A stretch of DNA of 64,000 nt from an uncultured Acidobacteriota bacterium (GCA_963713825.1 CAVQNG010000005.1:1-64000), one strand, 5' to 3'; shown: positions 11,162 through 64,000, counted from the stretch's first letter. Made by a program: numbers and translations. Notes: generated from the letters alone by a model not told the origin.

Positions 11162-11422
11162 CTAGCGACGATAGACCTCGCGCCGGAGCCCGACGCGTAG
11201 TACTGCGATCAGGAGCTCGGCGCCGTCGAAGCCGTAGATCACCCGAACGTGTCCGACTCGCAGTCGGCGGAGACCCTTCCATTGTCCGCTCAGCTGCTGG
11301 CCCCGAAGTGGATCGAGGGGCAGGTTTTCGACCGAATCGACGACCAGTACCTGGATGTCCTTCGGCAACCGCCTGAGCTCTTTGACGGCTCGCCTTTCCC
11401 ACCTAATCGAGATCGAGCTCAC
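11162..11422 (-). CDS. relE: RelE/ParE-family toxin
   Basis: A.KELRRL...LRRLRVG..RVIY...VLRVG.RREVYR. Confidence 0.88.
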   Translation of the reverse strand: MSSISIRWERRAVKELRRLPKDIQVLVVDSVENLPLDPLRGQQLSGQWKGLRRLRVGHVRVIYGFDGAELLIAVLRVGLRREVYRR

Positions 11423-11621
11423 GCCGGACCTCGTCGTGGTCGACCCATTCCGCTTGTGGGTCGCGGAACCTGGCGAGAGCCGCCTCCAGGTCCTCGCGCT
11501 CTTCGAGATAGACCTCGAGCGCTTCCACGATGAAGGAGCTCTTGGAGCGGCGGGTGGCTCTGGCGAGGGCGTCCAGGCGCTCTGCGAGTGGATCGGGCAG
11601 GCGGACCGATTGGGTGATCAT
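11403..11621 (-). CDS. RHH (RelB/CopG-like) antitoxin, probably leaderless
   Basis: SVRLP..L.ERLD.LA..T.RSKS; TACAAT 7 nt before ATG. Confidence 0.82.
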   Translation of the reverse strand: MITQSVRLPDPLAERLDALARATRRSKSSFIVEALEVYLEEREDLEAALARFRDPQAEWVDHDEVRRELDLD

Positions 11622-11650
11622 GTGCACCATTGTAATACAAGTAGTACCAA

Positions 11651-11751
11651 CGGCCGGCAGGGGTGCCAGCCGCTTCGAGAATTGGATGGGTCGTGCCGAT
11701 CACGGTTCGGTGTCTCTTCGATCCGTCGAACAGAGAAGTGCGTGGCATTCT
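11651..11751 (-). other. Ghost kinase 5' end (leader + VIGTTH codons) fused to REP-like hairpin
   Basis: GTGATCGGCACGACCCAT-N9-GAAGCGGCTGG..GCCGGCCG; 11726-11751 is 20/26 identical to the kinase leader at 18607-18632. Confidence 0.7.
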
Positions 11752-12427: not shown

Positions 12428-15169
12428 TCAGGGGACGAGGTTCTCGAGCTCCTGGAACCAGTTGAGGACGACGTCGATCTCTCGAGGCCAGTCTTCGTCT
12501 GGCGTCTTGATCATGAGGAAACGGCCGTCGGCCGCGACATCGTAGCCCAGCTTGTTGGCTGTCGCCATGTAGGAGCCACTGAAGAGCTCACGTGGCCGAC
12601 TGGCTGTCATCCGGTCGCCGGCCGCGACCTCGACGGCCATCACTCTCGGGCCAGCCCGGAAATAGAGCTCTCGCCCATCGTGCGACCAGAGCGGTTCCGA
12701 TCCACCCTCGATCGAGACTTGCAGCTTGCGTCCACCGTCGGGGAAGCGGGTGACATAGACTTGATTCTTGCCGGTTTCGTCGGAGGCATAGGCCACCCAG
12801 TTGCCGTCGGGAGAGAACGCTGCGAGATCCTCGTTGAAGGGCGTTGCCAGCCAGGGCTCAGCCTGCCGATCGCCCTCGAGAGGCAGCAACCAGAGGTCGT
12901 ATCCGCCCTCGCTACCAGAAACGCTGAAGAGCAAGAACTTGCCGTCGGGTGAGATCGAGCGAGCTTCGTTATCGAGTGGGGATTCCACCAGCAGCTCGGG
13001 CTGACTGGTGCCATCCGTCGTCCGTCGATAGAGGTTATAGGGTGGGTCGTCCTGGCCGTAGACGATGCGCTCACCGTCCGGCATCCACTGTGCTCCAAAC
13101 TGGGTGGCGGGCTCGAAGCTCAGTCGGCTGAGCGTGCCGCGGTCGAGCTCGAGGGCCCACAGATCCCAGCTCTGGTCCCGGATCGTTACAGCGATTCTCG
13201 CCCCATCGGGCGAGATCCGGGGGTGTCCGTACCGTTGGGCCTCCCCGATGGGGGTCTCGTTGCCGTTCTGGTCCACCCAGGCGAGTTGGCGAGGAGGATG
13301 CATCTCCGCACCGGGGACATACGCCAGGGTGCCGTTCGCGGCGAAGCTCAAAGGGGCGTCGCCCTGACCGATGTCGGGGATGATGTCGGTCAAGATGGGC
13401 ACAGGGGCTCCCACGATCTCGACCTTCTGGAGATCGAGGCGGGTCGCCATCAACGTGTGATCCCGGATGAAGAGCAAATGGCCGGTTGGAGAGTAGCGGC
13501 CCCACACTCCATCCTCGACGAGGGTCTTCGCCGTCCCCGACTCGAGGTCGTAGGCGTCGATGCTGGAGCGGGTCAGCGGCACAGAGAATGCCGTGAAGAG
13601 AACGACGCTTCCGCCGGGAAGGTGTTGCGGCCAGAAGTGCCCCAGCTCTCCCGCTTCCAGGTCGGGTGCTGTCAGCTCTTCCGGATCGCCACCTGCGGCG
13701 GGGATGCGGTGTAGCCCGCTCGTGTAGTAGGGGGTGTAGACGATGGTGTTGTCCAAACCCCAGGAGCCGCCGCCCCAGGTCGCTTTGGCGATCGTGGTAG
13801 CCCTTCCCGTCTCCAGAGACATCGTCAGCATCTCATTGTCGCGGGTGAAGCCGATCGACGCGCCGTCGGGCGAGAAGAACGGGTTGTCCACACCTTCGGT
13901 CTCGGGGATCGGTTCGATTTCGCCACTGTCGAGACGCCGCAGCAGGAGCTTCCGTGCGCCGTTCTCGTAACCGACCATTACCAGCTTGCCGCCGTCCGGT
14001 GACAGCACGATCACTTCGTTCGCGGCTAGGCCTGTTGCCGCCGGCAGAGTGATCGAGAGGCGTTGAACGGCCCCGGGAGGAGCCTCCTGGCTTCTCGGCA
14101 GGATCGCGAGCCCTGCCGCGATGACGGCGAGGGCCGCAGCGACGCCCCAGGGCAGGAACCGGCGCCAGGTCTTGGCTTCTGCGACCGGACTGGTCTCGGT
14201 CGTCGGAGCTGCCGAGCTGGTCAACATCAGGCGCGAGTCGGCAATGTCGTGCACCCGTTGCCGCGGATCCTTGGCGAGGCAGAGGCGAAGAACCTCGGTG
14301 ACATGCCACGGAGTTTCTGGCGGCAGGGTGTTCCAGTCGGGTTCTTGCGTCACCACGGCGGCCATCACGTCGGTGACCGTGTCTCCAGGGAATGCTGTGC
14401 GCCCCGTGAGCATTTCGAATAGGACCACTCCATAGGCCCAGATATCGGCCTGCTTGTCGACTTCCTGTCCCCGGGCCTGTTCGGGAGACATGTAGGCGAC
14501 GGTGCCCATCAGCACACCCGCCTGGGTCATCTGCGCGGTGAGCGTCGGCGACAGGGAAAGGCTCTGGGGTCCTGGGGTCTTGAGGTCTTGGGGGTCCAGG
14601 GCTTTGGCGAGTCCGAAGTCCAGCACCTTCACCTGACCGTCTGGCGTCACCTTGATGTTGGCGGGTTTGAGATCGCGGTGGATGATGCCTTTTTCGTGGG
14701 CCGCCTCGAGGGCCTCGGCGATCTGCACAGCGATGGGTTGAGCCGCCTCGTAGGACAACGCGCCCCGCTCGAGTTGTTCCTTGAGATCCTCGCCCTCGAC
14801 CAGCTCCATCACAAGGAAATGGATAGAGGGGCTTAAGGGCTTAGGGGCGTAGGGGCTTGAAACCTGAGGGGCTTGGGGGCTTAGGGATTTCTCCTGCAGC
14901 TCGGCATCGTCCAATGTAGGGGAGGGGCTTGCCCCCTCCCGCTCGAAGGAGTAGATCGCCGCGATGTTGGCGTGATTGAGGCTGGCCAGGACCTTGGCTT
15001 CACGCTCGAAGCGGGCGAGGCGCTCGGGATCGGAGGCCACGGCCTCCGGCAGCACCTTGATGGCCACCTCGCGCCCGAGCTTGGTGTCCTCAGCGCGATA
15101 GACCTCACCCATGCCGCCTTCACCCAGCTTGGCGGTGATCTTGAAATGAGAGAGGGTCGTGCCGATCAT
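12428..15169 (-). CDS. Membrane Ser/Thr kinase with TolB/PD40 beta-propeller
   Basis: Kinase motifs intact, [21 protein letters not shown], repeated FSPDG, VVLNW end; ~35-aa repeat-derived loop insert. Confidence 0.92.
14826..14941. repeat. Intragenic 8-bp tandem repeats plus GTAG-type REP palindrome, in frame
   Basis: GGGGCTTA/GGGGCGTA/GGGGCTTG units and GTAGGGGAGGGGCTTGCCCCCTCCC at 14916-14940. Confidence 0.8.
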
Positions 15170-18570: not shown

Positions 18571-18598
18571 CGGCCGGCACGGGGTCCGGCCGCTTCAA
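18571..18598. repeat. REP-like hairpin 9 nt upstream of kinase ATG
   Basis: CGGCCGGCACGGGGTCCGGCCGCTTCAA. Confidence 0.8.
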
Positions 18599-44857: not shown

Positions 44858-47626
44858 CTATCTGCCGTCGCCCGAGATCTGTTGCGACCAGTTGAGGAGG
44901 AACTCGATGCGGGCGCGGGCCGATTCGTCTCGATCGAGCTCGATGAAGAGGAATTGGCTGCCGGAAGATGCGGCGCCCCAGTTTCTCTGGGGTGCGGTCG
45001 TGGTCGTGAACCGGCTGGTGTCGGGAATGATCTCGATCGGTGGTCCAGTGCGAAATGCGCCGCCCGGCTCGATGTCGACTTTCATCAGAGACCGTCTGGC
45101 GTCTTGGATACGCAGGTAGAACAACTCCCGTCCGTTGCCCGACCAGAAGGGGTAGCCACCGGGACCGGGACTGACCTGCCACTTACCCTCTCCCTCGACG
45201 GGACGCACGAAGACGGAGGAGGTGCCGCTCCCGGGTGAGGCATAGGCGATCCAGCGACCATCGGGGGAGAAGCAGGGCGAGCTGGCATCTTTCTGGAAGA
45301 AAACCGGCTCTTCTCCGGGGCTCAAGAAATAGACATCGGGAGTGGCTCCGACGAAGGTATAGGCGAGAGTCTTGCCGTCCGGGCTCCAGGATTCCGGTAG
45401 CGCCACATCCAGGCCGGGGGGGCTGATGAGCTCTTCACTACCGCTGCCGTCGACCGGCTTGCGATAGATGCCCCGCTCTCCGGAGCCTCGCAGAAACGTG
45501 ACCCAGCGATTGTCGGGTGTGAACAGGGGATAGAGGTCATTGCCGCCGAAGGTGAACCGATTGAGCGCTTGCGTGTCGAGCGAATAGATCCAGACGTCAC
45601 CTGCCGTACCGGTAGCCCCCTCACCGATTGTGAAGGCAATCTGTTTGCCGTCCGGGGACATCCGAGGGTGGTGGAGTGGCTGAGGCGGCAATGGCAGTCC
45701 TGTCACTTCGCCGTCGCGATCCACGATGGCCAGGTGAGCCTTGCCCTGAGTAACGGCTCTCGGAACATAGGCCAGGCTGCCGTTGGGAGCCGCGGCAAAA
45801 AAGGAGACGCCGCTGGTGGTATCGCCACCCAGGTCTTCGATAACCGGAGTCGGGTCTCCGTCAACGCTCATGGTGTCGAGGTCGATGGCAACGCCGTAGA
45901 GCGTGCCGCGACGGGCGAAGAGTAGCCGATCGGGTGGTACGAATCGCGCCATGCTAGCGCCTTCGATAAGAACCCAGCGCTCACCCGTATCCAGAGAGTA
46001 CGCAACGATCTGAGCGTCGTCGTAGTTGTTCGGGCTGCGGGTGGTGCCGACTGTGAAGATCACCTTTCGGCCGCCGGGGAGCAGGTCGGGCCAACGATAG
46101 GTTCGCTCGCCTTGCTCGGCATCGGGCTCGACGATGGCCTCGGGCTCGCCTCCTAGAGCGGGGATGCGCTGAATTCCAGCTACATATCCGGGTGAATAGA
46201 GGATCGAGCCATCCGGACCCCAGACAAGTCCACGGGGATTGGAGGTCTCCGCCAGACCGATGGACTTGCCTCCAGCGACCGGAATTCGACGCACCTCGCC
46301 GTCGGCGAAGAAGGCCAGTTGCTGGCCATCGGGGGAGAAGGCCGGATTGGTGGCGCCCTCGGTTCCAGGAACAGGTCGCGCTTCGACTTGATCCAGAGCG
46401 CGAATGTAGATCTCCTGCTTGGAGGTTTCCGGATCGATGGCCGCGAAGGCGAGAGAGCGACCGTCAGGAGCAAAGGACAGCATGGGCTCGTCGCCATAGC
46501 CGAGTCGAAACCCCTCCGGCAGTGTGAGATCGAAGCGGATCGCGGGGTTCTCGGGTGGGGGATCGGCCGGCCGGAGGGCAAGGAAGAGCGCCGAACCTAT
46601 GCCGAGGATCGCCGCCGTCCAGGCGAGCAGCTCGCGCCAGCGTGATCGGGGTGGCGCAACCTGTTGCGTCTCCTCGTGGGTCGAAAGGGCCTCTTGAGAC
46701 TTGGCTTCCTCGAGCTCGATGCGGGCATCGCCGATGTCGCGCAGGCGATGCGCCGGGTCGCGCTGCAGGCAGCGGCGCAACAACCGGACTACCGACGGCG
46801 GCGTGTCTGCTGGCAGCAGTGCCAGATCGGGTTCGGTCTTCAGCACCTCGGCCAGGGTGTCGGAGACCGTGTCGCCGGCGAAGAGCTGCTTCTGGGTCAG
46901 CATCTCCCACAGCACGACGCCGAAGGCCCAGATGTCGGCCTGCTTGTCGGCCTCCTGTCCCCGTGCCTGCTCGGGACTCATGTAGGCGGCGGTGCCCATC
47001 AGCACTCCCGCCTGGGTCATCTGGGCGGTGAGCGTCGGCGACATCGACAGACCCTGACGGGTGGCTCCCGACTCCTGGGGATCGAGCGCCTTGGCAAGGC
47101 CGAAGTCGAGTACCTTGACCTTGCCGCCGGGGGTGACCTTGACGTTGGCGGGCTTGAGATCCCGGTGGACGATCCCCTGACCATGGGCCTCTTCGAGAGC
47201 ATCAGCCACCTGCGCCGCCATCTCGAGAGCATCGTCCATCGGCACACCTCGAGCAATGAGCTCTTGAAGAGTGTCGCCATCGACGAGCTCCATGACGAGG
47301 AAGTGGATAGAGGGTCCTGGGTCCTGGGGCTTGGGTCCTGGGGATTCCCCCGCCCCGTCTTTTTTGAAGCGGCCGGACCCTGTGCCGGCCGTCGCGCGTT
47401 CAAACGAGTAGATCGCAGCGATGTTCGGGTGATTGAGCGAAGCAAGGACCTTCGCTTCGCGCTCGAAGCGTGCGAGGCGTTCGGGATCGGAGGCTACGGC
47501 CTCGGGCAGGACCTTGATCGCCACCTCACGGCCGAGCTTCGTGTCCTCGGCCAGGTAAACCTCACCCATGCCGCCTTCGCCGAGCTTGGCGGTGATCTTG
47601 AAGTGGGAAAGCGAGGATCCAATCAT
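44858..47626 (-). CDS. Membrane Ser/Thr kinase with TolB/PD40 beta-propeller
   Basis: Kinase motifs, TM, SPDG repeats, LLNW end; in-frame REP + 7-mer insert at 47310-47398. Confidence 0.92.
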
Positions 47627-54742: not shown

Positions 54743-57478
54743 TCATCGATTCGGGAGCTCCGCTGGCCAATTGACGACGAGATTCACCACGGTCTCGGAG
54801 TTTCGCTGCTTGTTGGACCAGACGAGGAGCCTTTCGCCATCAGGGGCCAGGGCGAAGCTGGTTCCATCGGGTCTGGGAGGCTGAATCTGAAACAGCGGCT
54901 GAAGCTTGCCCGGTTGCAGGGATTCGGAACCGAAGGCGATCTCCGCCGCCACCAGCTGACCGTTCTGCTGCGTGAAGACGATCTCGCGGCCATCCGACCG
55001 CCACTGGGGGAAGAGCCCACCCTCTTGTGACACCTGCCAGCGGCGCCCTGCCTCCGGAAAAGGGGCCACGTAGATCTCATAGCGTCCCGACTCATTGGAG
55101 GAATACGCCACCCATCGGCCGTCGGGCGAGAAGGAGCCACAGCGTTCGTCGGCTTCCGTTTGCCGGAACGGTTTCGACTCGCCTCCTGCGCCTAGGTCCA
55201 ACACCATGAGGTCCCTGCTAGTGCCGGGCAGGGTCTGGTGGACCAACAGGGACCGCTCGTCTGGCGACACGCTGCACAGGATCATGTCTTCTTCTCGATC
55301 GACCAGGAGCTCTGTGTCACCGACTCCACCGACAGCCTTGCGATTGATTACGAAACGGTTGTTGTGCAACGCGCTGAAGATTACGCTGTCGCCATTCTCC
55401 GACCAGTCCAGGCCGAAGTTCGACATCGTTTCGAACGTGAAACGGCTGCGAAGACCGGTCTCGACATCGGTTAGCCAGAGATTACTGAGGCCCCCAGGGT
55501 CGAAGATGTCGGAGATCGCCTGCCTGCCATCCGGAGACAGTGCGATGGGCCCGAAGTTGGCCGGCTCGCCGACCGTATTCAGAACGTTGCCGGTGCGGTC
55601 TCTCCATTCGAGGGGCACCTCCGGATTGAGCACCCCAGTGTTGTAGGCGAGTAACCCGGAGTCGGAAGTGGAGAAGATCCCTAGTGCGGCGCCCGAAACG
55701 GTCAGGATCCCTTCCACCAGAGGAGTCGCCTCTCCCGTCAGCTCGAGTCGATCGGGGTCGAACCGCTGCGCCATCAGGGTACTGCCGCGGCTGAAGAGCA
55801 GCCAGCCCGCCGAATACTGTGCATTCGTGGGAGTTCTCAGGACCTCTCGACTGACGGGATCTTCGAGGGAGCCCAGCATCAGAGCGCTCTCCTCTTCCGT
55901 AGGACCGCGTGCCAGGTAGAGGAAGTGGCGTCCATCAGGGAGGAAGCGTGGGTGGCGGTGGGAGTTGTGAATCCCAGCCTCGATCTCTGTAACCACCACC
56001 GGCTCGCCACCCGCTGCTGCGACCTTGTGGATCGGCGAGTCAGCCCGGGGTGCGAAGAGGATCTCCCCGTCGCGATTCCACGTACCTCCCTTGCCATTCT
56101 CTGCGGCGCACACCGTAACGGGAGGTCCGCCCACGGTGTCGATCTTCTTCAGGGTCTGATCGACGTCGGTGAAGAAGCCGAGCCATCTCGAGTCTGGCGA
56201 CCAGAATGGATAGGCGGCACTCTCTGTTTCCGGCAGAGCCTCCGCAGCCCCGGTATCGAGAGCCTGGACGTAGAGGCGCACCGTGCCGCTTTCGTCCTGA
56301 ACCGAGAATGCGAGCTTCGTACCATCCGGTGACACCGCGACAGGGCCCGGGTTCCAGGCAGACAAATAGAAGACGCCCTCTTCCGGCGGGAGGATTGCGG
56401 CTCTCAGAACCGGAGTAGGGGAGGCCGGTTCGGAGCGAGACTGCACCCAGACCGCCAACAGTGCGACGGCTGTCAAGCCGAGGAGTGCCCAGGGCAGATT
56501 TTGCTTCCAGCCGGAAACCGGGGCTGGTGCGATTGTGGTCTTGGTGGTTTCGAAGCTGGTGGGATCTTCCAGGTAGTCCTGAATCAGGATCCTGGCGTCG
56601 CCGATGGCCTGCAGTCGTTGCGTCGGCTCTTTGCGAAGGCAGTGCTGCAGAAGGTCCAGGACCTGGGCTGGCGTGTTGGCCGGCAAAAGGTCCCAGTTGG
56701 GCTCCTCTTTGAGCACCGCCGCAAGGACGTGGGAGGCTGTCTTGCCGGCGAACTGCTGGCGTCCGGTCAACATCTCGGCCATGACAACTCCGAACGCCCA
56801 GATGTCTGCCCGCCGATCCGCTGGTTCGCCCGCAGCCTGTTCGGGGCTCATGTACGCTGCAGTGCCGAGCAGCACACCTGCCTGGGTCATCTGAGCGGTG
56901 AGCGTTGGTGACATCGACAGCGGGGACTGGCTCAGATCTCGATCCGTGCCTGTTCCCGGCTCGGGGTCCAGTGCCTTGGCCAGGCCGAAGTCCAGCACCT
57001 TGACCTGGCCACTCGGAGTCACCTTGATATTGGCCGGCTTGAGATCGCGGTGAATGACGCCGATCTCGTGAGCCGCTTCCAGCGCCTGGGAGATTTGCAG
57101 CCCGATCGGCATCGCTTCATCGAGCGGGACCGACCCTCGGTCGATACGCTCCTTGAGGTCTTCGCCCTCGACGAGCTCCATGACGAGAAAGTGGACGGAG
57201 GGGCGTAGGGGCGTAGGGGCTTGGGGGCTTGCCCCCTCCCGTTGCGCTGATTCAAACGAGTAGATGGCGGCGATGTTCGGGTGGTTAAGAGAGGCGAGGA
57301 CCTTGGCCTCACGCTCGAAACGCGCCAGGCGTTCTGGGTCTGCAGCTACGGCCTCGGGTAGCACCTTGATGGCCACTTCACGCCCCAGCTTCGTGTCCTC
57401 GGCGCGGTAGACCTCACCCATGCCGCCTTCGCCCAGCTTGGCGGTGACACGGAAGTGAGAGAGGGTAGTGCCGATCAT
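54743..57478 (-). CDS. Membrane Ser/Thr kinase with TolB/PD40 beta-propeller
   Basis: Kinase motifs, TM, SPDG repeats, VVNW end; repeat inserts at 56922-56957 and 57198-57250. Confidence 0.92.
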   Translation of the reverse strand: MIGTTLSHFRVTAKLGEGGMGEVYRAEDTKLGREVAIKVLPEAVAADPERLARFEREAKVLASLNHPNIAAIYSFESAQREGASPQAPTPLRPSVHFLVMELVEGEDLKERIDRGSVPLDEAMPIGLQISQALEAAHEIGVIHRDLKPANIKVTPSGQVKVLDFGLAKALDPEPGTGTDRDLSQSPLSMSPTLTAQMTQAGVLLGTAAYMSPEQAAGEPADRRADIWAFGVVMAEMLTGRQQFAGKTASHVLAAVLKEEPNWDLLPANTPAQVLDLLQHCLRKEPTQRLQAIGDARILIQDYLEDPTSFETTKTTIAPAPVSGWKQNLPWALLGLTAVALLAVWVQSRSEPASPTPVLRAAILPPEEGVFYLSAWNPGPVAVSPDGTKLAFSVQDESGTVRLYVQALDTGAAEALPETESAAYPFWSPDSRWLGFFTDVDQTLKKIDTVGGPPVTVCAAENGKGGTWNRDGEILFAPRADSPIHKVAAAGGEPVVVTEIEAGIHNSHRHPRFLPDGRHFLYLARGPTEEESALMLGSLEDPVSREVLRTPTNAQYSAGWLLFSRGSTLMAQRFDPDRLELTGEATPLVEGILTVSGAALGIFSTSDSGLLAYNTGVLNPEVPLEWRDRTGNVLNTVGEPANFGPIALSPDGRQAISDIFDPGGLSNLWLTDVETGLRSRFTFETMSNFGLDWSENGDSVIFSALHNNRFVINRKAVGGVGDTELLVDREEDMILCSVSPDERSLLVHQTLPGTSRDLMVLDLGAGGESKPFRQTEADERCGSFSPDGRWVAYSSNESGRYEIYVAPFPEAGRRWQVSQEGGLFPQWRSDGREIVFTQQNGQLVAAEIAFGSESLQPGKLQPLFQIQPPRPDGTSFALAPDGERLLVWSNKQRNSETVVNLVVNWPAELPNR

Positions 57479-57540
57479 CGGTCGTTGCGGCCGGCACGGG
57501 GTCCGGCCGCTTCCTGTTGCTTGTGGGTGGCGCCGATCAT
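57475..57540 (-). other. 21-aa junction mini-ORF MIGATHKQQEAAGPRAGRNDR spanning a REP hairpin
   Basis: ATG overlaps upstream kinase stop and TGA overlaps downstream kinase ATG; hairpin at 57487-57513. Confidence 0.6.
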
Positions 57541-60245
57541 CTGGAGGCGAGCTTCTCCGTCCAATTTAAGACCAGAGATGCTCTCGTCGAACCCAAGTTG
57601 TCTTCCGGTTGCAGGACCAGGAACCTGCTTCCATCTGCAGAGACGTCAAAGGTGAAGTCGCCTGTCAGGAAGGGGCGATACGAGAACAGCGTTGTCTCTT
57701 GCCCGCCTCGGAAACCGTCCTCGGAAGTTTCGACGGGTGCCGCTTTCATCTCTCCTGAAGGGGAGAGGTAGAAGATCTCTTTGCCGTCGCCACGCCACTG
57801 TGCGTAGTCACCGCCCGCGCTCGAGACCTGCCATTTCCCTTCGAGGTCGGGAAACGAGGTCACGAAGACCTCGCGGATTCCCGACTCGTCGGAGGTATAG
57901 GCGAGCCAGCGGTTGTCGGGTGAGAAGGCGCAAGGCCACTCATTGAAGTCGCCGCCACGCAGTTCGACCGGCTCGGTCGAGTTTCCCCTCATCCTCAGCC
58001 CCAAGAGCTGTTCTCCTTCGACCTCCGAGCGTCCGTAGCACAGCCACTCGCCGTCAGAGGACCAATCATAGACCCACAGATCCCTGGTGTCGGAGGCGAT
58101 CAGCTCTTCCGTAGCGGTGCCGCTGACCGCCTTCTTGTAGATATCAAAGGAACCAGTTCGATTGTCACTATAGGCGATGGTACGACCATCCGGAGACCAG
58201 GCTGCGTTGCCAGTGTCCAGGCCGTCATCTGTGCTGGAGCTGAAGGTGAAGCGCGTTTTGACTCCTCGGTCCAGATCGAGAAGCCAGAGGTCTGCGCCTC
58301 CGCTCTTGGTATCTGCGATGGATATGGAAGCCGTACCTCCATCCGGTGACAGTCGAATCGACTGATAGGTCGCGGGCTCGCCTACGACCTCGACCGTTTT
58401 TCCCTCCCGATCCATCCAAACGATCGAGGCCGCCATGTTGATCAAGCCTCCAGGGTGAAAGGCCAGGACGCCGTTCGACGAGGCCGAGAAGGTCCCCATG
58501 GTGAAGGCGGAGTCGAAGAGTACGTTCTCTAACAACGGGATGGGATCGCCAGTGGTTTCCAAGCGGTCGGTATCGAAAGGCTGCGCGATGAGAGTCGACT
58601 CACGCATGTAGAGCAGGTGACCGGAGGCATAGGCAGCATTGGAAGCCATGTCGAGAACCCGCTTTCGCTCGCCGGTATCGATATCGACAGCAAAAACGCC
58701 CGGGTCGATTCCGGCTCCTCCAGATGTCGAGCGGGCGAGAAAGAGAACATTCCGGCCATCGGGAAGAAAATGGGGATATCGGTGGGTCTGCTCACTGCGC
58801 TCGGCGTCGAGTTGTGTGACCTGCTTGGGCTCGCCGCCGCCCTCGGGAATGCCCATCAACGGGCCTGTGAGATTGGGGGCGTAGACGATCGTGCCGCCCG
58901 ATCCCCAGGTGCCGCCGCGAGTATCGTTGACTTCGGTCAGAGCGATGGGCGGTCCACCCAGAACCGAGATCCGTTTCAAACGGGAACCCGCGAAGAAGCC
59001 GAGGTGTTGGGAGTCTGGTGACCAGAAGGGTCTGATGGCACCCTCCGTACCTGGAAGAGGGCTACCCATCGATTGATCGAGAGATCGGTGCCACAGCTGC
59101 TGGTTGCCTGCCTCGTCGATAGCCGAAAACGCCAGACGGGTGCCGTCGGGAGATACGACTACAGGTCCGGCGGTGAAGCCCGCTGGAACAAGAAGCACTC
59201 CCTCCGGCATCACGACGCTGGCGTTGACAAGAGGCATCGGTGTAGGAGATCTCTTGAAATAGGCGAGTCCGAAACCTGTGGCAGCCAAGCCAGCCAGGGC
59301 GAATGCAATCCAGGGAACCGCTCGCTTCCAGGTAGGCGGTCCGGGATCGGCGGGAGATCCGGTCGCCGGAGCAAAGGCATCCTCGCCGTTGGTCAGGAAC
59401 GTGCGGATCGCGATTCGAGCCTCGCCGATATCGCGCAGTCGCTCTTGTGGGTCGCGAGTCAGGCAGCGGCGCAGCAGCCGGGTGACCGACACCGGTGTCG
59501 TTTCCGGCAGCAGCGCCAGGTCGGGCTCGGTCTTGAGGACCTCGGCCAGGGTGTCGGAGACGGTATCGCCGGCAAAAAGTTGTTTCCTTGTGAGCATCTC
59601 CCACAAGACCACACCGAAAGCCCAGATGTCGGCCCTCTTGTCGGCCTCCTGGCCACGTGCCTGCTCGGGCGACATGTAGGCTGCCGTTCCCATCAGGACA
59701 CCAACCTGGGTCATCTGTGCGGTGAGCGTGGGAGATAGGGATAGGCCCTGGGGTCCTGGGGTCTTGAGGTCTTGGGGGTCCAGTGCCTTGGCAAGGCCGA
59801 AGTCGAGGACCTTGACGGTGCCGTTTGGCGTGACCTTGACGTTGGCGGGCTTGAGATCCCGATGGACAACCCCTTGCTCATGGGCCTCCTCGAGGGCGCT
59901 CGCCACTTGCGCCGCCATCTCCAGGGCGTTCTCGGGTGAAACGCCCTGTTCGATGAGCTCCTGCAGGGTCTCGCCGTCAATGAGCTCGAGTACAAGGAAC
60001 CGTTTGTCGTCGGCTTCTTCGAGACCGTAGATGGCTCCGATGTTCGGGTGGTTGAGCGAGGCGAGAACTTTGGCCTCACGCTCAAAGCGGGCCAGACGCT
60101 CCGGATCGCTGGCAACGGCCTCGGGTAGCACCTTGATCGCCACCTCGCGACCGAGCTTTGTGTCCTCGGCTCGGTACACCTCACCCATGCCGCCTTCGCC
60201 GAGCTTGGCGGTGATTTTGAAGTGAGAAAGAGTGGTGCCGATCAC
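57537..60245 (-). CDS. Membrane Ser/Thr kinase with TolB/PD40 beta-propeller (GTG start)
   Basis: VIGTTLSHF start matches paralogues; kinase motifs, TM, VLNW end. Confidence 0.92.
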   Translation of the reverse strand: MIGTTLSHFKITAKLGEGGMGEVYRAEDTKLGREVAIKVLPEAVASDPERLARFEREAKVLASLNHPNIGAIYGLEEADDKRFLVLELIDGETLQELIEQGVSPENALEMAAQVASALEEAHEQGVVHRDLKPANVKVTPNGTVKVLDFGLAKALDPQDLKTPGPQGLSLSPTLTAQMTQVGVLMGTAAYMSPEQARGQEADKRADIWAFGVVLWEMLTRKQLFAGDTVSDTLAEVLKTEPDLALLPETTPVSVTRLLRRCLTRDPQERLRDIGEARIAIRTFLTNGEDAFAPATGSPADPGPPTWKRAVPWIAFALAGLAATGFGLAYFKRSPTPMPLVNASVVMPEGVLLVPAGFTAGPVVVSPDGTRLAFSAIDEAGNQQLWHRSLDQSMGSPLPGTEGAIRPFWSPDSQHLGFFAGSRLKRISVLGGPPIALTEVNDTRGGTWGSGGTIVYAPNLTGPLMGIPEGGGEPKQVTQLDAERSEQTHRYPHFLPDGRNVLFLARSTSGGAGIDPGVFAVDIDTGERKRVLDMASNAAYASGHLLYMRESTLIAQPFDTDRLETTGDPIPLLENVLFDSAFTMGTFSASSNGVLAFHPGGLINMAASIVWMDREGKTVEVVGEPATYQSIRLSPDGGTASISIADTKSGGADLWLLDLDRGVKTRFTFSSSTDDGLDTGNAAWSPDGRTIAYSDNRTGSFDIYKKAVSGTATEELIASDTRDLWVYDWSSDGEWLCYGRSEVEGEQLLGLRMRGNSTEPVELRGGDFNEWPCAFSPDNRWLAYTSDESGIREVFVTSFPDLEGKWQVSSAGGDYAQWRGDGKEIFYLSPSGEMKAAPVETSEDGFRGGQETTLFSYRPFLTGDFTFDVSADGSRFLVLQPEDNLGSTRASLVLNWTEKLASR

Positions 60246-60258
60246 GAAGATCCCTCGG

Positions 60259-62646
60259 CTATCCTCTGGCCGCCATGCGATCCACCAGTTCCTGAAATCG
60301 GGGATCGTCACGGATGTTGTCGAGATCGCTGTCCTGGCGTAACCACTCGACGTCGGTCTTGCCGGCCGCGACCGATTTCTCCATGGCGTCGATGGCCAGG
60401 TCGACCTCCCCGGCCAGCGAGTAGAAGCAGGCCACGTTGTAAAGCAGCAATCCGTCGTCGGCTGCACTGTCGAGCACCATCTCGACCGCAGCAAACGCTT
60501 TGTCGCGCTGACCTAGGGCCAGCAACCCGGTCGCAGCAGTGAGGCGAACATTCAGATCGTCGGGGTAGAGCTCCAGATGACGAGTCGCCCACTCGAACAT
60601 TCGTCCATAGGCTCTCAGTGCGTCCTCTTCACGGCCCAGACTCGTGTAGACCTGAGGCAAGATGTTGATCGCACTCCGAGTCTCGGGGTCCAACTCGATC
60701 GACTTCTCCCACAGCTCTGCCGCCCTCTCCAGATCACCTTGCCTGTAGAGGAGAGACCCGTAGGCGACGTAATTTGCGGAGCTAGTCGGATCGAGCCGGA
60801 TGGCCTGCTGCAGCTCGGCCTCTGCGCCGGTAAGTTCGTCAGCTCTTTGAAGGTAGAGTGCCCGAGCGCGGTGGGCCTCGGCAAGGTCGGGGGCCAGGGC
60901 CAAGGCCTCGGCACTGGCCTGGCCGGCTGCCTCGAGATTGGCCGGGTCGGCTCCGGCGAAGTGGTAGAGGCTCTCGTGGGCCTTGGTCAGGCCCACCCAG
61001 GCCAACGCATATCCGGGATCGACCTCCGCAGCCCGCTCGTACATCTGAAGGGCGAACTCCCTCGCCTCGGGGGTACCCTGTCTCCGATACTGCTCGCCAC
61101 GCAGATAGAAGTCGTAGGCTTGGGTGTTGTCGGTGCCGCCAAGCTCGACGACGGTTTGGGCGTCGGGTGCCAACTCCAGCCGGAGCGCATCCGCGATACT
61201 GCCAGCGATCTCGTCTTGAACCGCGAAGACATCCTCCAGCTCGCGGTCATAGGTCTCCGACCACAGCTTGAAACCGTCGCTGACCTGGACCAGCTGGGTC
61301 GAGATACGCAACCGATTGCCGGCCTTGCGAACGCTACCTTCGAGGACGGTTTCCACCCCGAGTCGGTCGCCCACCCTTTGAATATCGAGATCCTTGCCCT
61401 TGAGCGCAAAGATCGCCGTGCGCGATGGCACCTTGAGTCCCTCGATCGTACCCAGAGCCTGGAGGAGCTCCTCGGTCATGCCGTCAGTGAAATACTCCTG
61501 GTCCTTTTCTGGGCTGAGATCCGCGAAGGGCAGAACTGCCACCGAGGGGGCGGCGGAAACAGGCGTCCGGGGGGACTCCGTCTCGACAGTCTGTTCCTTT
61601 CTGCCACGTCCGATCCACCAAGTCGCTGCCGCGACCAGGAACAGGGCTGCCCCGATCAGGGCCCACTTGCCGAGCTGTCCTCTCGCAGGTACTGGCATCG
61701 CCGCGGAGGAAACCGCGGAGCTCGGTGCCGAGCTGGCAGCTGGCATGGATTGATCCGTTAGCTGGGAGGTGCTGGTCGCAACCACCGAATCGGACTGAAC
61801 TTCGTCGCGCAGGCCATCCAGCTCGTTGCGGATGTCCTTCGCCGATTGGTAGCGCCGTTCGGGATCCTTCTCGAGGCAGCGTTGGATGATGCGACCCAAA
61901 TGACGCGGCAGATCGGCTCGCACCTCGGTTACTACCGCGGGAGTCTCACGAAGGATTCTCGACGCCAGATCGATACCGCTCTCGCCCTGGAAGGGGCGCT
62001 GGCCGGTGGTCATCTCATAGAGCACAACACCGAGCGAGAAGATGTCGGTCCGGTCATCGACCACCTTGCCCTGAAGCTGCTCTGGAGACATGTAGGGAGC
62101 AGTGCCCATGACCGTACCTTCCTTGGTCAGGGTCGCGGCTTCGGTGGCAGCTTCCTCGGTCGGGGCCTGGGCCTCGGTCGCCAGCTTGGCCAGCCCGAAG
62201 TCCAACATCTTGACCCGGCCATCGGAGGTGACCATGACATTTGCGGGCTTCAGGTCCCGATGGACGATGCCCTTCTCGTGCGCTGCGGCGAGTGCATCGG
62301 CCATCGGGATGGCGATGTCGAAAACCTTCGCCAGCGGCATACCCTGGGGCGGCACGAGTTGGTCGAGGCTCTCGCCCTCGACGAGCTCCATGATCAGAAA
62401 GCGTTGCCCGCTGTCCTCTTCGATGCTGTAGATGGCGACGATGCTCGGATGATTGAGCGCGGCCACTGCCTTGGCCTCGCGGCGAAAGCGCTCCAGGCGC
62501 TCAGGGTGGTCGGCCATCGCCGCCGGCAGCACCTTGAGAGCGACCTTGCGGTCGAGCTCGGTGTCCTCGGCCAGATACACCTCACCCATTCCACCTGCGC
62601 CGAGCTTGGCGGTGACTCGGAAGTGAGAGAGGGTAGTGCCGATCAT
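60259..62646 (-). CDS. Membrane Ser/Thr kinase with TolB_N+TPR
   Basis: Kinase motifs, TM WALIGAALFLVAAATWWI, SVAVLPF, YNVACFYS...DSDLDNIRDDPRF end. Confidence 0.92.
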   Translation of the reverse strand: MIGTTLSHFRVTAKLGAGGMGEVYLAEDTELDRKVALKVLPAAMADHPERLERFRREAKAVAALNHPSIVAIYSIEEDSGQRFLIMELVEGESLDQLVPPQGMPLAKVFDIAIPMADALAAAHEKGIVHRDLKPANVMVTSDGRVKMLDFGLAKLATEAQAPTEEAATEAATLTKEGTVMGTAPYMSPEQLQGKVVDDRTDIFSLGVVLYEMTTGQRPFQGESGIDLASRILRETPAVVTEVRADLPRHLGRIIQRCLEKDPERRYQSAKDIRNELDGLRDEVQSDSVVATSTSQLTDQSMPAASSAPSSAVSSAAMPVPARGQLGKWALIGAALFLVAAATWWIGRGRKEQTVETESPRTPVSAAPSVAVLPFADLSPEKDQEYFTDGMTEELLQALGTIEGLKVPSRTAIFALKGKDLDIQRVGDRLGVETVLEGSVRKAGNRLRISTQLVQVSDGFKLWSETYDRELEDVFAVQDEIAGSIADALRLELAPDAQTVVELGGTDNTQAYDFYLRGEQYRRQGTPEAREFALQMYERAAEVDPGYALAWVGLTKAHESLYHFAGADPANLEAAGQASAEALALAPDLAEAHRARALYLQRADELTGAEAELQQAIRLDPTSSANYVAYGSLLYRQGDLERAAELWEKSIELDPETRSAINILPQVYTSLGREEDALRAYGRMFEWATRHLELYPDDLNVRLTAATGLLALGQRDKAFAAVEMVLDSAADDGLLLYNVACFYSLAGEVDLAIDAMEKSVAAGKTDVEWLRQDSDLDNIRDDPRFQELVDRMAARG

Positions 62647-62708
62647 CGGTCGTTGCGGCCGGCACGGGGTCCGGCCGCTTCAGGCTCCTTATGGGTAGTG
62701 CCGATCAT
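62643..62708 (-). other. 21-aa junction mini-ORF MIGTTHKEPEAAGPRAGRNDR spanning a REP hairpin
   Basis: ATGA overlaps at both ends; ATGATCGGCACTACCC duplicated exactly; hairpin at 62655-62682. Confidence 0.6.
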
Positions 62709-64000
62709 GGGGTGGCCGTGAACATCTGCTCGAGCTCGTCGAACCAGTTGGTGACCATGACGACGTGATCGATCGTATCCGCGCTGTTGGATCCCTGGAA
62801 CATCACCAGGTATTCGGCGCCAGGTGCGACATCGTAGTCCAGGCTCGGGAACAGATCGATAAACCGGGTCTCGAAGAGAGTCTCGGGCCGCTTGGCTCGA
62901 AAGGTGTCTCCCGCGGTCTCGACCGAGGCCGTCGAAATGCCCAAGGCCGTTCGATAGAAGATCTGCTTCTGATCCGACGACCACGTTGGGTAGGTGGCCC
63001 GTTCACCGCCGGCAGAGATCTGCCACTCGCCTCGCCCTGAAGGGAACGGCCGCACGTAAGCCTCGAATCCCCCTGACTCGTTGGAGCCGTAGGTGATCCA
63101 GTTGCCATCGGGGGAAATTCTGCCACCGTACTCGATGAACTTCGTGGTGAGGAACATCTCGGGTTCCCCTTCGCCTTCGAGCTCCATGGTCATGATGTCC
63201 CAGTTGCTCTCTGGGTTGATTTGACTGAAGACGAGTGTTTTGCCATCGGGGGTAAGAGAACTGGGAGCCTGATCAAGATCGGTTTCGGTCAGTCGAACGG
63301 GCTGCTCAGAGCCATCGGCTGCGACGCGGAAGATGTCGTAAGAGTTTCCCCGGTCGGACTGGAAGTAGATCCACTCGCCGTCTGGAGACCAGACAGGTCC
63401 GGTGTCGTCGCCTTCGTCGAAGGTCAATCGGGTGTGAATGCCCCGGTCGAGATCTTCGACCCAGATGTCACCGTTGCCGCTCTCCGAAGCGATGTCGAGG
63501 GCGAGCCGGCGACCATCGGGTGAGAAGGCCGGGGTCCAGAACGTGCCGGAATCTTCGAGAAGTGGAGACACGAGGCCGTCCAGATCGACCCGCACCGCAT
63601 CGTAGGCGGCCGCACTCGCGGCACCCTGCATATAGACCAACTTGCCGTTGTCAGAAACGGCGTAGTGAGCCGTGCCGTAGGCACCCTCGTTGGTCGTCAG
63701 GGACTCGATGACCGGACCGGGAGAGCCTTGGAGCTCCAGGGTGACGGGGTCCATCGGTACCGCGTAGAGCGTTCCCTCACGAGCGTAGAGTAGATGTCCC
63801 GAGTTGGCCCAACGCGGGTAGGTACCGCCCTGGATCAGCACCTTTCTTTCGCCCGACTCCAGATCGAGGACCTCGATCGTGGCCTCTGCAAAACGGGCAT
63901 TCTCGGTGTGGGACACGAAGAGGACGGCCTTGCCATTGGGCAGAACATGCGGCCAACGATGGGTGATCTCTCCCTTCTCCTCATCGAGTGTCGTCAGCTG
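62705..64000 (-). CDS. C-terminal TolB/PD40 propeller of another probable kinase (N-terminus outside window)
   Basis: Frame open to right edge (HRWPHVLPNG), SPDG repeats, VTNW end like the paralogues. Confidence 0.8.
   Translation of the reverse strand, partial: QLTTLDEEKGEITHRWPHVLPNGKAVLFVSHTENARFAEATIEVLDLESGERKVLIQGGTYPRWANSGHLLYAREGTLYAVPMDPVTLELQGSPGPVIESLTTNEGAYGTAHYAVSDNGKLVYMQGAASAAAYDAVRVDLDGLVSPLLEDSGTFWTPAFSPDGRRLALDIASESGNGDIWVEDLDRGIHTRLTFDEGDDTGPVWSPDGEWIYFQSDRGNSYDIFRVAADGSEQPVRLTETDLDQAPSSLTPDGKTLVFSQINPESNWDIMTMELEGEGEPEMFLTTKFIEYGGRISPDGNWITYGSNESGGFEAYVRPFPSGRGEWQISAGGERATYPTWSSDQKQIFYRTALGISTASVETAGDTFRAKRPETLFETRFIDLFPSLDYDVAPGAEYLVMFQGSNSADTIDHVVMVTNWFDELEQMFTATP

What the first reader, a model, noticed from the sequence alone, without database searches (positions are those of the whole stretch)
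57463..62708. Kinase-start/REP junction element: candidate cassette-insertion site and translational relay in a kinase array
Seen: two kinase-kinase spacers (57475-57540 and 62643-62708) have the same 66-nt layout, ATGATCGGC(A/G)CNACCCAY-N9-GAAGCGGCCGGACCCCGTGCCGGCCGC-AACGACCG-ATGA. The first 16 nt duplicate the start of the downstream kinase (exact at 62693-62708 vs 62631-62646). Each spacer is a 21-aa ORF (MIGxTHKxxEAAGPRAGRNDR) whose ATG overlaps the upstream stop and whose TGA overlaps the next ATG. At 15166-15169 and 47623-47626 the kinase ATGA supplies the upstream stop directly. Inference: the shared start sequence behaves like an att/target site, where REP-tagged units insert or excise while keeping the upstream stop and translational coupling intact. 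This would be an integrase-free, integron-like way of building a receptor-kinase array. I do not know a described system with this layout.
Basis: partly seen in the sequence, partly recalled or inferred. Interest (0 to 1): 0.85.

Follow-up and report, generated by a model that had tools for sequence, protein, structure and literature searches.

The report
Hairpin repeat bridging tandem kinase genes
Two short spacers between neighbouring protein-kinase genes are copies of a small repeat, made of a copied kinase gene start plus a common DNA hairpin, that sister species have lost, kept or multiplied; nothing shows that it shuffles whole genes.

Summary
Both spacers have the stated 66-nt layout. 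Each is a 21-codon ORF with an ATGA overlap at both ends.

They are not a unique pair. They belong to a composite repeat: an 18-nt copy of a Ser/Thr-kinase start, about 9 nt of filler, and one member of a REP-like GC hairpin family. That hairpin family has 99 hits in this genome and occurs across the taxonomic family.

The composite has 4 copies in this genome. Further copies lie in three other species of the genus (Thermoanaerobaculia) and on metagenome contigs.

At orthologous junctions, sister species are empty (direct ATGA coupling), filled, or expanded by tandem 54-nt units. The break always falls at the duplicated 16-mer. In this genome the two copies also exchanged a short tract by gene conversion.

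What varies is the 62-nt unit, not kinase genes. I found no integron integrase and no transposase gene flanked by the hairpin. Other hairpins of the family have no comparable flanking repeats.

Best reading (confidence about 0.55): a repeat that changes by recombination or replication slippage, and whose 3n+2 length preserves a bridging ORF and so translational coupling. That last point is inferred. The integron-like cassette idea is not supported. Interest is moderate.

The parts
57475..57540 (-). Spacer 1, a 21-codon bridging ORF. Left arm (kinase-start copy) 57540-57523, filler 57522-57514, GAAGC plus hairpin 57513-57487, 8-nt linker 57486-57479, ATGA 57478-57475.
   Evidence: The orthologous junction is filled on metagenome loci L042 and L047 and empty in G005.
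62643..62708 (-). Spacer 2, a 21-codon bridging ORF. Left arm 62708-62691, filler 62690-62682, GAAGC plus hairpin 62681-62655, linker 62654-62647, ATGA 62646-62643.
   Evidence: The orthologous junction is empty in G003 and G004, degenerate in G002, and expanded to 167 nt in G005.
11651..11703 (-). Third composite copy: GTG left arm 11703-11686, filler 11685-11677, hairpin 11676-11651. No kinase follows. The leader upstream resembles the promoter and leader region of the kinase that starts at 18561. An RHH/ParE toxin-antitoxin pair lies downstream.
   Evidence: Orthologous copies on L049 and L050.
18571..18596 (-). Hairpin with the same rare loop (ACCCCGTG), 9 nt before the ATG of the kinase at 15166-18561. 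It has no left arm. On metagenome locus L043 the same site carries an extra 62-nt composite unit.
54743..57478 (-). Ser/Thr kinase with PD40 beta-propeller repeats, downstream of spacer 1.
57537..60245 (-). Ser/Thr kinase with PD40 repeats, upstream of spacer 1. The likely start is GTG 60245; the listed ORF reaches 60494.
60259..62646 (-). Ser/Thr kinase with TPR repeats, downstream of spacer 2.
62705..64000 (-). 3' part (PD40 repeats) of the kinase upstream of spacer 2. Its start lies outside the window at C5:65692.
15166..15169 (-). Direct ATGA stop/start overlap between two kinase genes: the 'empty' form of the junction.
47623..47626 (-). Direct ATGA stop/start overlap between two kinase genes.

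Best explanation
The spacers are two copies of a composite repeat seen only in this genus. It has three parts:
- an 18-nt copy of a Ser/Thr-kinase 5' end (start codon plus five codons);
- about 9 nt of filler;
- one member of a family-wide REP-like GC hairpin, which in several paralogous kinases already sits 8-9 nt before the ATG as part of the 5' leader.

The copied 16-mer and the true kinase start form a direct repeat around the hairpin. I think the 62-nt unit is old. It is inherited with the kinase loci and changes by ordinary recombination:
- slippage or deletion between the two 16-mers, giving precise loss;
- tandem reiteration, as in the 54-nt units in G005;
- gene conversion among the many similar kinase 5' ends.

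I do not think it moves by a transposase or an integron-like cassette mechanism.

The unit is 62 nt (3n+2) and starts with the kinase's own ATGA. So the upstream gene still stops on TGA. A short ORF then runs through the hairpin and stops on the TGA that overlaps the kinase ATG. Ribosomes finishing the upstream gene could therefore melt the hairpin (-18.8 kcal/mol, ending 8 nt before the start) and re-initiate, keeping translational coupling.

Shown: the anatomy, the family, the filled/empty/expanded states and the conversion tract. Inferred: the direction of change, the recombination mechanism and the translational bridge.
For: 1. The hairpin is a dispersed family. G000 has 99 oriented hits, 74 of them preceded by T. 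All 6 genomes of the genus hold 15-56 exact copies, and other genera of the family hold up to 248.

2. Composite copies: 4 in G000, 2 in G003, 3 in G005, 1 degenerate in G002, 0 in G004, and in G001 one hit with no hairpin. Of 10 metagenome loci, 6 carry it, 1 is uncertain and 3 are coding-sequence chance hits.

3. Filled, empty and expanded states occur at orthologous junctions, with the break at the 16-mer. A further case is L043 against the 18561 site.

4. Left arm and filler are locus-specific and shared by orthologues. At the 57537 junction they are identical in G000, L042 and L047, whose flanks are 97.5-98.3% identical. At the 62705 junction the filler is AAGGAGCCT in G000 and AAGAACCCT in G002, whose flank is 81% identical. 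This implies old, vertically inherited units.

5. Gene conversion. G000 spacer 1 equals L042 except at 2 nt of the linker and 4 nt in codons 9-11. At 5 of those 6 positions it matches G000 spacer 2.

6. Apart from tandem arrays, whose neighbouring units repeat each other, the only long flanking direct repeats (score 13 or more) among 165 hairpin hits are at the two spacers. A mismatched-flank control has a similar background.

7. No hairpin-flanked transposase: 4 Y1-type ORFs score 51.5 and 58.7 bits (2 of 4 scanned) against a RAYT cut-off of 80, and 0 of 4 has the strict hairpin within 600 nt. No integron integrase scores over the cut-off.

8. Bridge ORF. In 10 of 10 kinase-adjacent rows the distance from arm start to kinase ATG is 2 mod 3 (62, 62, 86, 62, 167, 113, 86, 62, 62, 62). 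In 9 of 10 the ORF is open up to the overlapping TGA.

9. Published REP surveys describe clusters reiterated in tandem together with flanking DNA, and REPs inside ORFs (PMC3733652, passages read).
Against: - Polarity is unresolved. The rpoB tree of the genus is star-like (85.5-88.3% pairwise identity, supports 0.60-0.79) and G003 lacks the gene. 'Empty' could therefore be ancestral and 'filled' a gain.
- Random recombination does not explain why every copy, at five or more loci, joins ACCCAY plus about 9 nt to the hairpin at the same point. That needs either a single origin or a site-specific process.
- I could not reconstruct the founding event. A simple local tandem duplication does not fit: the 11 nt after the first 16-mer match neither the kinase nor the sequence upstream of the hairpin.
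- A 16-nt homology is short for RecA-type exchange.
- Against the bridge being selected: G002 has lost the ATG and the upstream frame reads on. L043 has an in-frame TAG. The filler-encoded residues are not conserved. A 20-codon GC-rich frame stays open by chance in roughly 60% of cases (my estimate from base composition).
Confidence: 0.55

Rival explanations
1. A true miniature mobile element. A 46-62-nt hairpin unit inserts specifically at the kinase start sequence and duplicates 16 nt of target (or carries its own mimic of the start). It would be mobilised in trans, for example by one of the RAYT-like Y1 transposases.
For: - Filled and empty orthologous sites are bounded exactly by the 16-mer at three different sites.
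- All loci share the same join and layout.
- G005 has tandem units.
- G000 has four Y1/RAYT-like ORFs.
- At the 62705 junction, G005 carries a different subtype of the unit from G000 and G002.
Against: - 0 of 4 Y1 ORFs has the strict hairpin within 600 nt, and both scanned score below the RAYT cut-off.
- Other hairpins of the family show no comparable flanking repeats.
- Copies without a kinase downstream have no clean second 16-mer.
- Left arms and fillers are locus-specific and shared by orthologues, so no recent burst is visible.
- The identity of the two G000 copies is explained by a conversion tract that runs into the kinase coding sequence.
- From recall, a 16-bp target duplication is longer than those of the usual bacterial transposon families.
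Confidence: 0.2
2. A selected regulatory leader or bridge ORF. The short ORF plus hairpin would be kept because it sets the translation ratio or the mRNA processing between neighbouring kinases, as an attenuator-like or coupling device. Its repeat nature would be secondary.
For: - The phase is kept in 10 of 10 rows and the ORF is open in 9 of 10, across unit lengths of 62, 86, 113 and 167 nt.
- The three length steps that I infer (24, 27 and 54 nt) are all multiples of three, roughly 0.04 by chance. This is my estimate and my own decomposition.
- The hairpin ends 8-9 nt before a start with no evident Shine-Dalgarno motif in each kinase leader examined.
- A small ORF translationally coupled to a kinase gene is known: cbrX-cbrA (PMC6591292, abstract read).
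Against: - Sister species do without it at the same junctions.
- G002 lost the ATG at about the neutral rate, with 5 of 18 arm positions changed against 81% flank identity.
- L043 has an in-frame TAG.
- There is no peptide conservation in the filler.
- All units descend from one 62-nt module, so the shared phase is not independent evidence.
- Overall folds of the spacers are not unusual: z -1.9 and -0.7.
Confidence: 0.15
3. One reading: an integrase-free, integron-like system in which REP-tagged kinase genes insert or excise as cassettes at the shared start sequence.
For: - Hairpins lie between genes of an array, and the 16-mer marks an indel boundary.
- Kinase content of the array differs between species: G003 and G004 lack the two kinases found between 57537 and 62646 in G000.
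Against: - The indel at the 16-mer is only the 62-nt unit.
- In G003 and G004 the break lies about 130 nt inside the TPR-kinase, not at the 16-mer or hairpin.
- No integron integrase scores over the cut-off: best 95 bits against 265, and that hit is on another contig.
- Most junctions of the array have no hairpin.
- The composite also stands where no kinase follows.
Confidence: 0.04
4. One segmental duplication of spacer plus kinase within this genome, with nothing more to it.
For: The two copies share 64 identical bases from the hairpin into the kinase.
Against: - Further copies lie at other loci and in other species.
- The two downstream kinases are of different types, PD40 and TPR.
- The identity is a short conversion tract, not a long duplication.
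Confidence: 0.01

Closest known systems
REP / BIME elements of Proteobacteria (repetitive extragenic palindromes; REPIN-RAYT systems)
   Same: - Short GC-rich stem-loop in tens to hundreds of copies, mostly between genes and also between cistrons of operons.
- Variants differ in the loop.
- Clusters are reiterated in tandem together with flanking DNA, and some copies lie inside ORFs (PMC3733652, passages read).
   Different: - The conserved tag is (T)GAAGC, not GTAG or CGTC.
- The spacers hold single hairpins, not inverted doublets.
- No RAYT gene flanked by the hairpin was found.
- The fusion to a copied gene start, giving a stop/start-overlapping bridge ORF, was not found in my searches.
Small upstream ORF translationally coupled to a kinase gene (cbrX-cbrA of Pseudomonas putida)
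   Same: A short ORF directly upstream of a sensor kinase gene, with translational coupling reported (PMC6591292, abstract read).
   Different: cbrX is described as a highly conserved ORF. Here the ORF is repeat-derived, variable in length (21-56 codons), absent in sister species, and its translation is untested.
Precise excision of insertions by replication slippage between short direct repeats flanking a palindrome (classical Tn5/Tn10 precise excision; recalled, no paper read)
   Same: Direct repeats bracket a hairpin-forming segment. Loss removes the segment plus one repeat and restores the uninterrupted junction, as in the empty sites of G003, G004 and G005.
   Different: No transposon is involved, the repeats are 16 nt, and the direction of change (loss or gain) is not established here.
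Integron attC sites and gene cassettes
   Same: Hairpin-forming sites between co-oriented genes of an array.
   Different: - No IntI scores over the cut-off.
- No cassette-sized presence/absence at the sites.
- The hairpin is a member of a genome-wide REP-like family.
Rickettsia palindromic elements and other in-frame intragenic REPs
   Same: Repeat-derived sequence read in frame inside proteins. This applies to the kinase loop inserts noticed in passing (PMC3733652 passages).
   Different: The spacers themselves are intercistronic, not inside a protein.

Membership tests
REP / REPIN-RAYT | Short GC-rich palindrome dispersed in many copies, mainly extragenic | tested here: met
   G000 has 99 oriented hits and 42 exact matches. 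There are 15-56 exact copies in each genome of the genus and up to 248 in another genus. Only 14 of 99 have their TGA closing an open frame of 80 or more codons. Extragenic location was not checked against a gene annotation.
REP / REPIN-RAYT | Conserved GTAG or CGTC tag at one end (the two super-families of PMC3733652) | tested here: not met
   The conserved flank is GAAGC, preceded by T in 74 of 99. The definition comes from passages read.
REP / REPIN-RAYT | Cognate RAYT gene flanked by the REPs | tested here: not met
   There are 4 Y1_Tnp ORFs of 313-363 aa. The two scanned score 51.5 and 58.7 bits against the NF047646 cut-off of 80. 0 of 4 has the strict hairpin within 600 nt; one has an unrelated GC palindrome downstream.
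REP / REPIN-RAYT | REPIN doublet (two inverted REPs) | tested here: not met
   Each spacer holds a single hairpin. Doublets were not surveyed genome-wide.
Integron / gene cassette array | Integron integrase IntI | tested here: not met
   With TIGR02249 the best hit is 95 bits against a cut-off of 265, covers 55 residues only, and lies on contig C3. None is on the window's contig.
Integron / gene cassette array | Gene-sized cassettes present or absent with both breakpoints at the recombination site | tested here: not met
   Only the 62-nt unit varies at the 16-mer. The gene-content break in G003 and G004 lies about 130 nt inside a kinase. Short contigs in G002 and G005 limit the test.
Integron / gene cassette array | attC architecture (paired R and L boxes with extrahelical bases) | not tested
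   No attC model was available. The hairpin is a perfect 8-bp stem with an 8-nt loop.
MITE or transposon with target-site duplication | Direct repeat of the target flanking every copy | tested here: inconclusive
   A repeat is present at the kinase-adjacent copies: 16 of 16 and 14 of 16 in G000. It is not clean at the 11703 copy and only 12 of 17 at G003:C130 (my count). Other hairpins of the family lack one.
MITE or transposon with target-site duplication | Filled and empty orthologous sites | tested here: met
   62705 junction: G003 and G004 empty. 57537 junction: G005 empty. 18561 site: G000 lacks the unit that L043 has. Polarity is unknown.
Translationally coupled upstream small ORF | Stop/start overlap with the downstream gene, kept in relatives | tested here: inconclusive
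   The ATGA overlap and phase hold in 10 of 10 rows and the ORF is open in 9 of 10. But G002 has lost the start, L043 has a TAG, and sister species lack the ORF.
Translationally coupled upstream small ORF | Downstream translation depends on upstream translation | not testable with these tools
   Needs reporter fusions or ribosome profiling. The one RNA run laid gave only contigs and does not cover the spacers.

The most novel reading that the evidence does not exclude
The unit is a 'self-bridging' miniature insertion. It would be a hairpin element that lands at the ATGA stop/start overlap of translationally coupled kinase genes. It brings, or regenerates, both an ATGA at its head and the kinase ATGA at its tail, in a 3n+2 length. 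The insertion would then be translationally transparent and could spread through operons without polar effects. That would be a way for selfish DNA to colonise the tightest intergenic junctions known.
Probability: 0.15. Interest if true: 0.7.

Novelty: new variant of a known kind. Interest (0 to 1): 0.4.

Why it matters
If the bridge ORF works as inferred, it shows how a stable repeat hairpin can sit between translationally coupled genes without uncoupling them. It would also show how repeat-mediated slippage and gene conversion remodel the 5' ends of a large paralogous kinase family in Acidobacteriota.

It is also a practical warning for annotation. The 21-56-codon ORFs and the repeat-derived inserts in kinase loops come from repeats, and MAG contigs tend to break at these hairpins.

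It does not provide evidence for a new gene-cassette mechanism.

Tried and rejected
- **Rfam.** A scan of the whole window at gathering thresholds gave 0 matches.
- **Public runs.** 24 runs were listed. I laid 4 of them: 3 DNA and 1 metatranscriptome, all Logan contigs.
  - Contigs stop at the hairpins; for example, pieces begin at 57514 or end at 57510.
  - None of the 15 joints shown lies at a spacer edge, and 75 more joints were not shown.
  - The RNA contigs do not cover the spacers.
  - So this gives no verdict on empty-site variants, circles or transcription.
- **Species tree.** The rpoB tree meant to polarise filled against empty is star-like, and G003 has no rpoB in its assembly. My first attempt used unoriented loci and was discarded.
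- **Local tandem duplication as the origin.** Rejected, because the 11 nt after the first 16-mer match neither the kinase nor the sequence upstream of the hairpin.
- **Stump of a deleted kinase arising independently at each locus.** Rejected, because the stump length and the join are the same everywhere. A single such event as the founder remains possible.
- **Shine-Dalgarno idea.** AAGGAG in the filler of spacer 2 could be brought near the ATG by the hairpin. Rejected, because no other filler has such a motif.
- **Circular permutation between the 11703 and 18561 loci and L043.** Looked at and dropped. The toxin-antitoxin pair simply sits in different contexts.
- **Chance hits.** Pattern hits in other orders and phyla lie in coding sequence and have no hairpin. 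They include a recurring protein-coding motif reading VIAATHxDLEAA.
- **Supplements.** Supplementary files of papers were not consulted. The REP family tables of PMC3733652 are in its additional files, so I cannot exclude that this hairpin family is listed there.
Full report
**1. Observation**

Spacer 1 (57540..57475) reads:
- ATGATCGGCGCCACCCAC
- AAGCAACAG
- GAAGC-GCGGCCGG-ACCCCGTG-CCGGCCGC
- AACGACCG
- ATGA

Spacer 2 (62708..62643) has the same layout with ATGATCGGCACTACCCAT and AAGGAGCCT.

The 16-mer is duplicated exactly at spacer 2 and with 2 mismatches at spacer 1. Each spacer is a 21-codon ORF. Its ATG overlaps the TGA of a long upstream frame, and its TGA overlaps the kinase ATG. Direct ATGA junctions exist at 15166-15169 and 47623-47626.

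The genes are Ser/Thr kinases fused to PD40 or TPR repeats. Of 8 ORFs scanned, 7 carry Pkinase. The eighth is cut by the window end, and its kinase-type start lies at C5:65692.

Chance is excluded:
- The hairpin core gives 6 matches against 0 in 100 shuffles.
- The start motif gives 9 matches against a mean of 0.04.
- The reversed composite pattern gives 0 hits in 61 genomes.

**2. The hairpin is a REP-like family**

In the whole genome (38 contigs, 5.42 Mb), a pattern for GAAGCGGCCGG-loop-CCGGCCG with one mismatch allowed per arm gives 99 oriented hits. Of these, 74 are preceded by T, and the loops fall into a few variants. The loop ACCCCGTG of the spacers occurs only three times: the two spacers and the leader of the kinase at 18561.

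Many copies sit in clusters with GGGCTTGGGGG-type repeats or in tandem arrays. Three hairpins follow what look like tRNA 3' ends.

Exact copies are found in all 6 genomes of the genus (15-56 each). Among the 27 other genomes of the taxonomic family, 11 hold 15 or more copies, up to 248. One of these, G006, is flagged unpublished; without it the count is 10 of 26. Outside the family, 3 of 18 genomes have 1-9 hits.

Record titles of contigs carrying the composite name the class Thermoanaerobaculia, phylum Acidobacteriota.

The family lacks the GTAG or CGTC tag of the published REP super-families (passages of PMC3733652).

The genome has four Y1-transposase ORFs. The two scanned score 51.5 and 58.7 bits against the RAYT model, whose cut-off is 80. 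None of the four has the strict hairpin within 600 nt.

**3. The spacers belong to a composite repeat**

The left arm plus 9 nt plus GAAGCGGC also occurs at two further places in G000:
- Window 11703-11651. It starts with GTG and no kinase follows. Its frame runs on for 94 codons into an RHH/ParE toxin-antitoxin pair.
- G000 C10:699-784. It starts with TTG, 8 nt after a TACAAT box. It holds one full and one partial hairpin, spans 86 nt, and ends on the ATGA of a kinase.

In the other five genomes of the genus, a looser pattern gave:

| Genome | Hits | Note |
|---|---|---|
| G003 | 2 | |
| G005 | 3 | at 2 loci |
| G002 | 1 | degenerate, at a contig end |
| G001 | 1 | no hairpin; I take it as chance |
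| G004 | 0 | 100% complete |

Hits in other families and orders (G026, G042, G050, G053) lie in coding sequence and have no hairpin.

Collection scans:
- Genome contigs: 9 loci. Four carry the composite, all on Thermoanaerobaculia MAG contigs. Five are chance coding hits.
- Metagenome contigs: 10 loci. Six carry it (L042, L043, L045, L047, L049, L050), one is uncertain (L046, which has a different small palindrome), and three are chance hits.

At 11703, the sequence upstream of the left arm resembles the promoter and leader region of the 18561 kinase (my reading). In G003:C130 a kinase fragment follows about 100 nt downstream. I therefore read the left arm as a genuine former kinase start.

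**4. Orthologous junctions differ exactly at the 16-mer**

Junction 62705, where the upstream gene ends ...NWFDELEQMF...:

| Genome | State |
|---|---|
| G000 | one unit |
| G002 | one unit; filler AAGAACCCT (7 of 9 as in G000); left arm decayed to TTTTTCGGCACGAATCAC, so the ATG and the upstream stop are lost; the contig ends in the hairpin |
| G005 | two tandem 54-nt units, a part-hairpin and another hairpin: 167 nt in all |
| G003, G004 | empty: ...ACCGA-ATGATCGGCAC[T/G]ACTC-TTTCTC..., a direct ATGA overlap |

In G003 and G004 the downstream TPR-kinase breaks off after about 130 nt. What follows matches contig C21 of G000.

Junction 57537:
- G000 and metagenome loci L042 and L047 are filled, with identical arm and filler.
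- G005 is empty.
- In G003 the orthologous kinase is first in its operon. It has the same hairpin 9 nt before its ATG but no left arm.

Site 18561: G000 has hairpin-9 nt-ATG. L043 has hairpin, 9 nt, GTG left arm, CGGAGATAG, a second hairpin, 9 nt, ATG. The kinase flank of L043 is 85% identical to G000.

**5. Direction and mechanism**

rpoB gives 85.5-88.3% pairwise identity among five species of the genus and an unresolved tree. G003 has no rpoB. Gain and loss therefore cannot be told apart by parsimony.

Several facts point to old, vertically inherited units that change by recombination:
- Arm and filler are locus-specific and shared by orthologues.
- G000 spacer 1 equals L042 except at 2 nt of the linker and 4 nt in kinase codons 9-11. 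At 5 of those 6 positions it matches G000 spacer 2, which marks a short gene-conversion tract.
- Among 165 hairpin hits, the only long flanking direct repeats (score 13 or more) outside tandem arrays are those of the two spacers.
- No hairpin-flanked transposase and no integron integrase over the cut-off was found.

Direct repeats around a hairpin are classical substrates for slippage. That would give both precise loss and tandem gain. This point is recalled knowledge; I read no paper for it.

Two things remain unexplained: the founding event, and why the join ACCCAY plus about 9 nt plus hairpin is constant across loci.

**6. The bridging ORF**

In all 10 rows where a kinase follows, the distance from the arm's first base to the kinase ATG is 2 mod 3 (62, 62, 86, 62, 167, 113, 86, 62, 62, 62). 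These rows cover five locus types. In 9 of 10 the frame is open up to the TGA that overlaps the ATG; L043 has an in-frame TAG.

I read the length differences as three events, of 24, 27 and 54 nt. All are multiples of three, about 0.04 by chance. Both the decomposition and the estimate are mine.

The hairpin folds at -18.8 kcal/mol and ends 8 nt before the AUG. The linker has no evident Shine-Dalgarno motif. Folds of the whole spacers are unremarkable, with z of -1.9 and -0.7.

My inference is that translation of the short ORF lets ribosomes from the upstream kinase gene pass the hairpin and re-initiate. Units that keep this arrangement would then be the ones tolerated.

Against a selected function:
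- Sister species have empty sites at the same junctions.
- The arm has decayed in G002.
- L043 carries the TAG.
- The filler-encoded residues are not conserved.

**7. Comparison with known systems and novelty**

The hairpin behaves like a REP family but fails two membership features, the end tag and a flanking RAYT gene. The unit behaves like a small indel-prone repeat. The bridge resembles known coupled upstream ORFs such as cbrX-cbrA (abstract).

Five full-text searches found no description of a REP-type hairpin fused to a copied gene start that forms a doubly overlapping bridge ORF. Only listings and abstracts were seen, apart from the passages of PMC3733652. Supplements were not consulted.

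I rate it a new variant of a known kind.

**8. Verdict**

| Item | Rating |
|---|---|
| Observation | confirmed |
| Best explanation | confidence about 0.55 |
| Mobile-element rival | 0.2 |
| Selected regulatory ORF | 0.15 |
| Integron-like cassettes | 0.04 |
| Interest | 0.4 |

Noticed in passing
window 47310-47395 and 50060-50143 (minus-strand kinases starting at 47626 and 50374); also inside the kinases starting at 15169 and 57478: Repeat-derived sequence sits in frame in the same N-lobe loop of four kinases, just before ...HFLVMELV. The insert is a reverse-oriented copy of the hairpin plus GGGTCCTGGGG or GGGGCTTGGGG repeats. In the kinase at 47626 it encodes about 30 extra residues (...[29 protein letters not shown]...). 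This resembles the in-frame palindromic elements of Rickettsia.
   Followed up: partly
window 47623-50374 (-): This kinase is frame-broken. Its true start is ATG 50374. One extra base inside the repeat-derived insert, relative to its paralogue at 47626, shifts the frame. The long ORF is therefore listed only from GTG 50313, and its Pkinase match begins at profile position 74.
   Followed up: partly
window 11162-11630 (-): An RHH antitoxin (75 aa) and a ParE-family toxin (86 aa) lie directly after the third composite copy, with overlapping stop and start. On metagenome locus L043 the same pair sits in a different context.
   Followed up: partly
G000 C5:65400-71000, C21 and C22: Near-identical kinase-start regions recur on C5 (65410 and 68373) and on the short contigs C21 and C22. 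This suggests either segmental duplication or strain mixture in the assembly.
   Followed up: no
G000 C25:945077-945239: A tandem array of four hairpin units with a 46-nt period. Related genome G016 has long arrays with periods of 87-91 nt.
   Followed up: no
G000 C3:488549, C3:491374, C3:1145462: Hairpins of the family follow directly after sequences that look like tRNA 3' ends (...TCGAATCC...). They may act as terminators without a T run.
   Followed up: no
G000 C3:1156518-1156682: A 55-residue stretch matches the C-terminal end of the integron-integrase model at 95 bits, inside an open frame of only 159 aa. It may be a fragment. It lies about 3.5 kb from one of the RAYT-like ORFs.
   Followed up: no
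G003:C143 and G004:C87 (loci L010, L009): In both species the orthologue of the TPR-kinase (window 60259-62646) is cut off after about 130 nt. It is followed by about 1.9 kb that matches G000 contig C21, so the kinase array differs in gene content between species.
   Followed up: partly
loci L006, L007 (G050, G042) and others: The composite DNA pattern also hits a recurring protein-coding motif, VIAATHxDLEAA. From recall this looks like sigma-54 activator AAA+ domains. It is a source of false positives for any motif search with this element.
   Followed up: no
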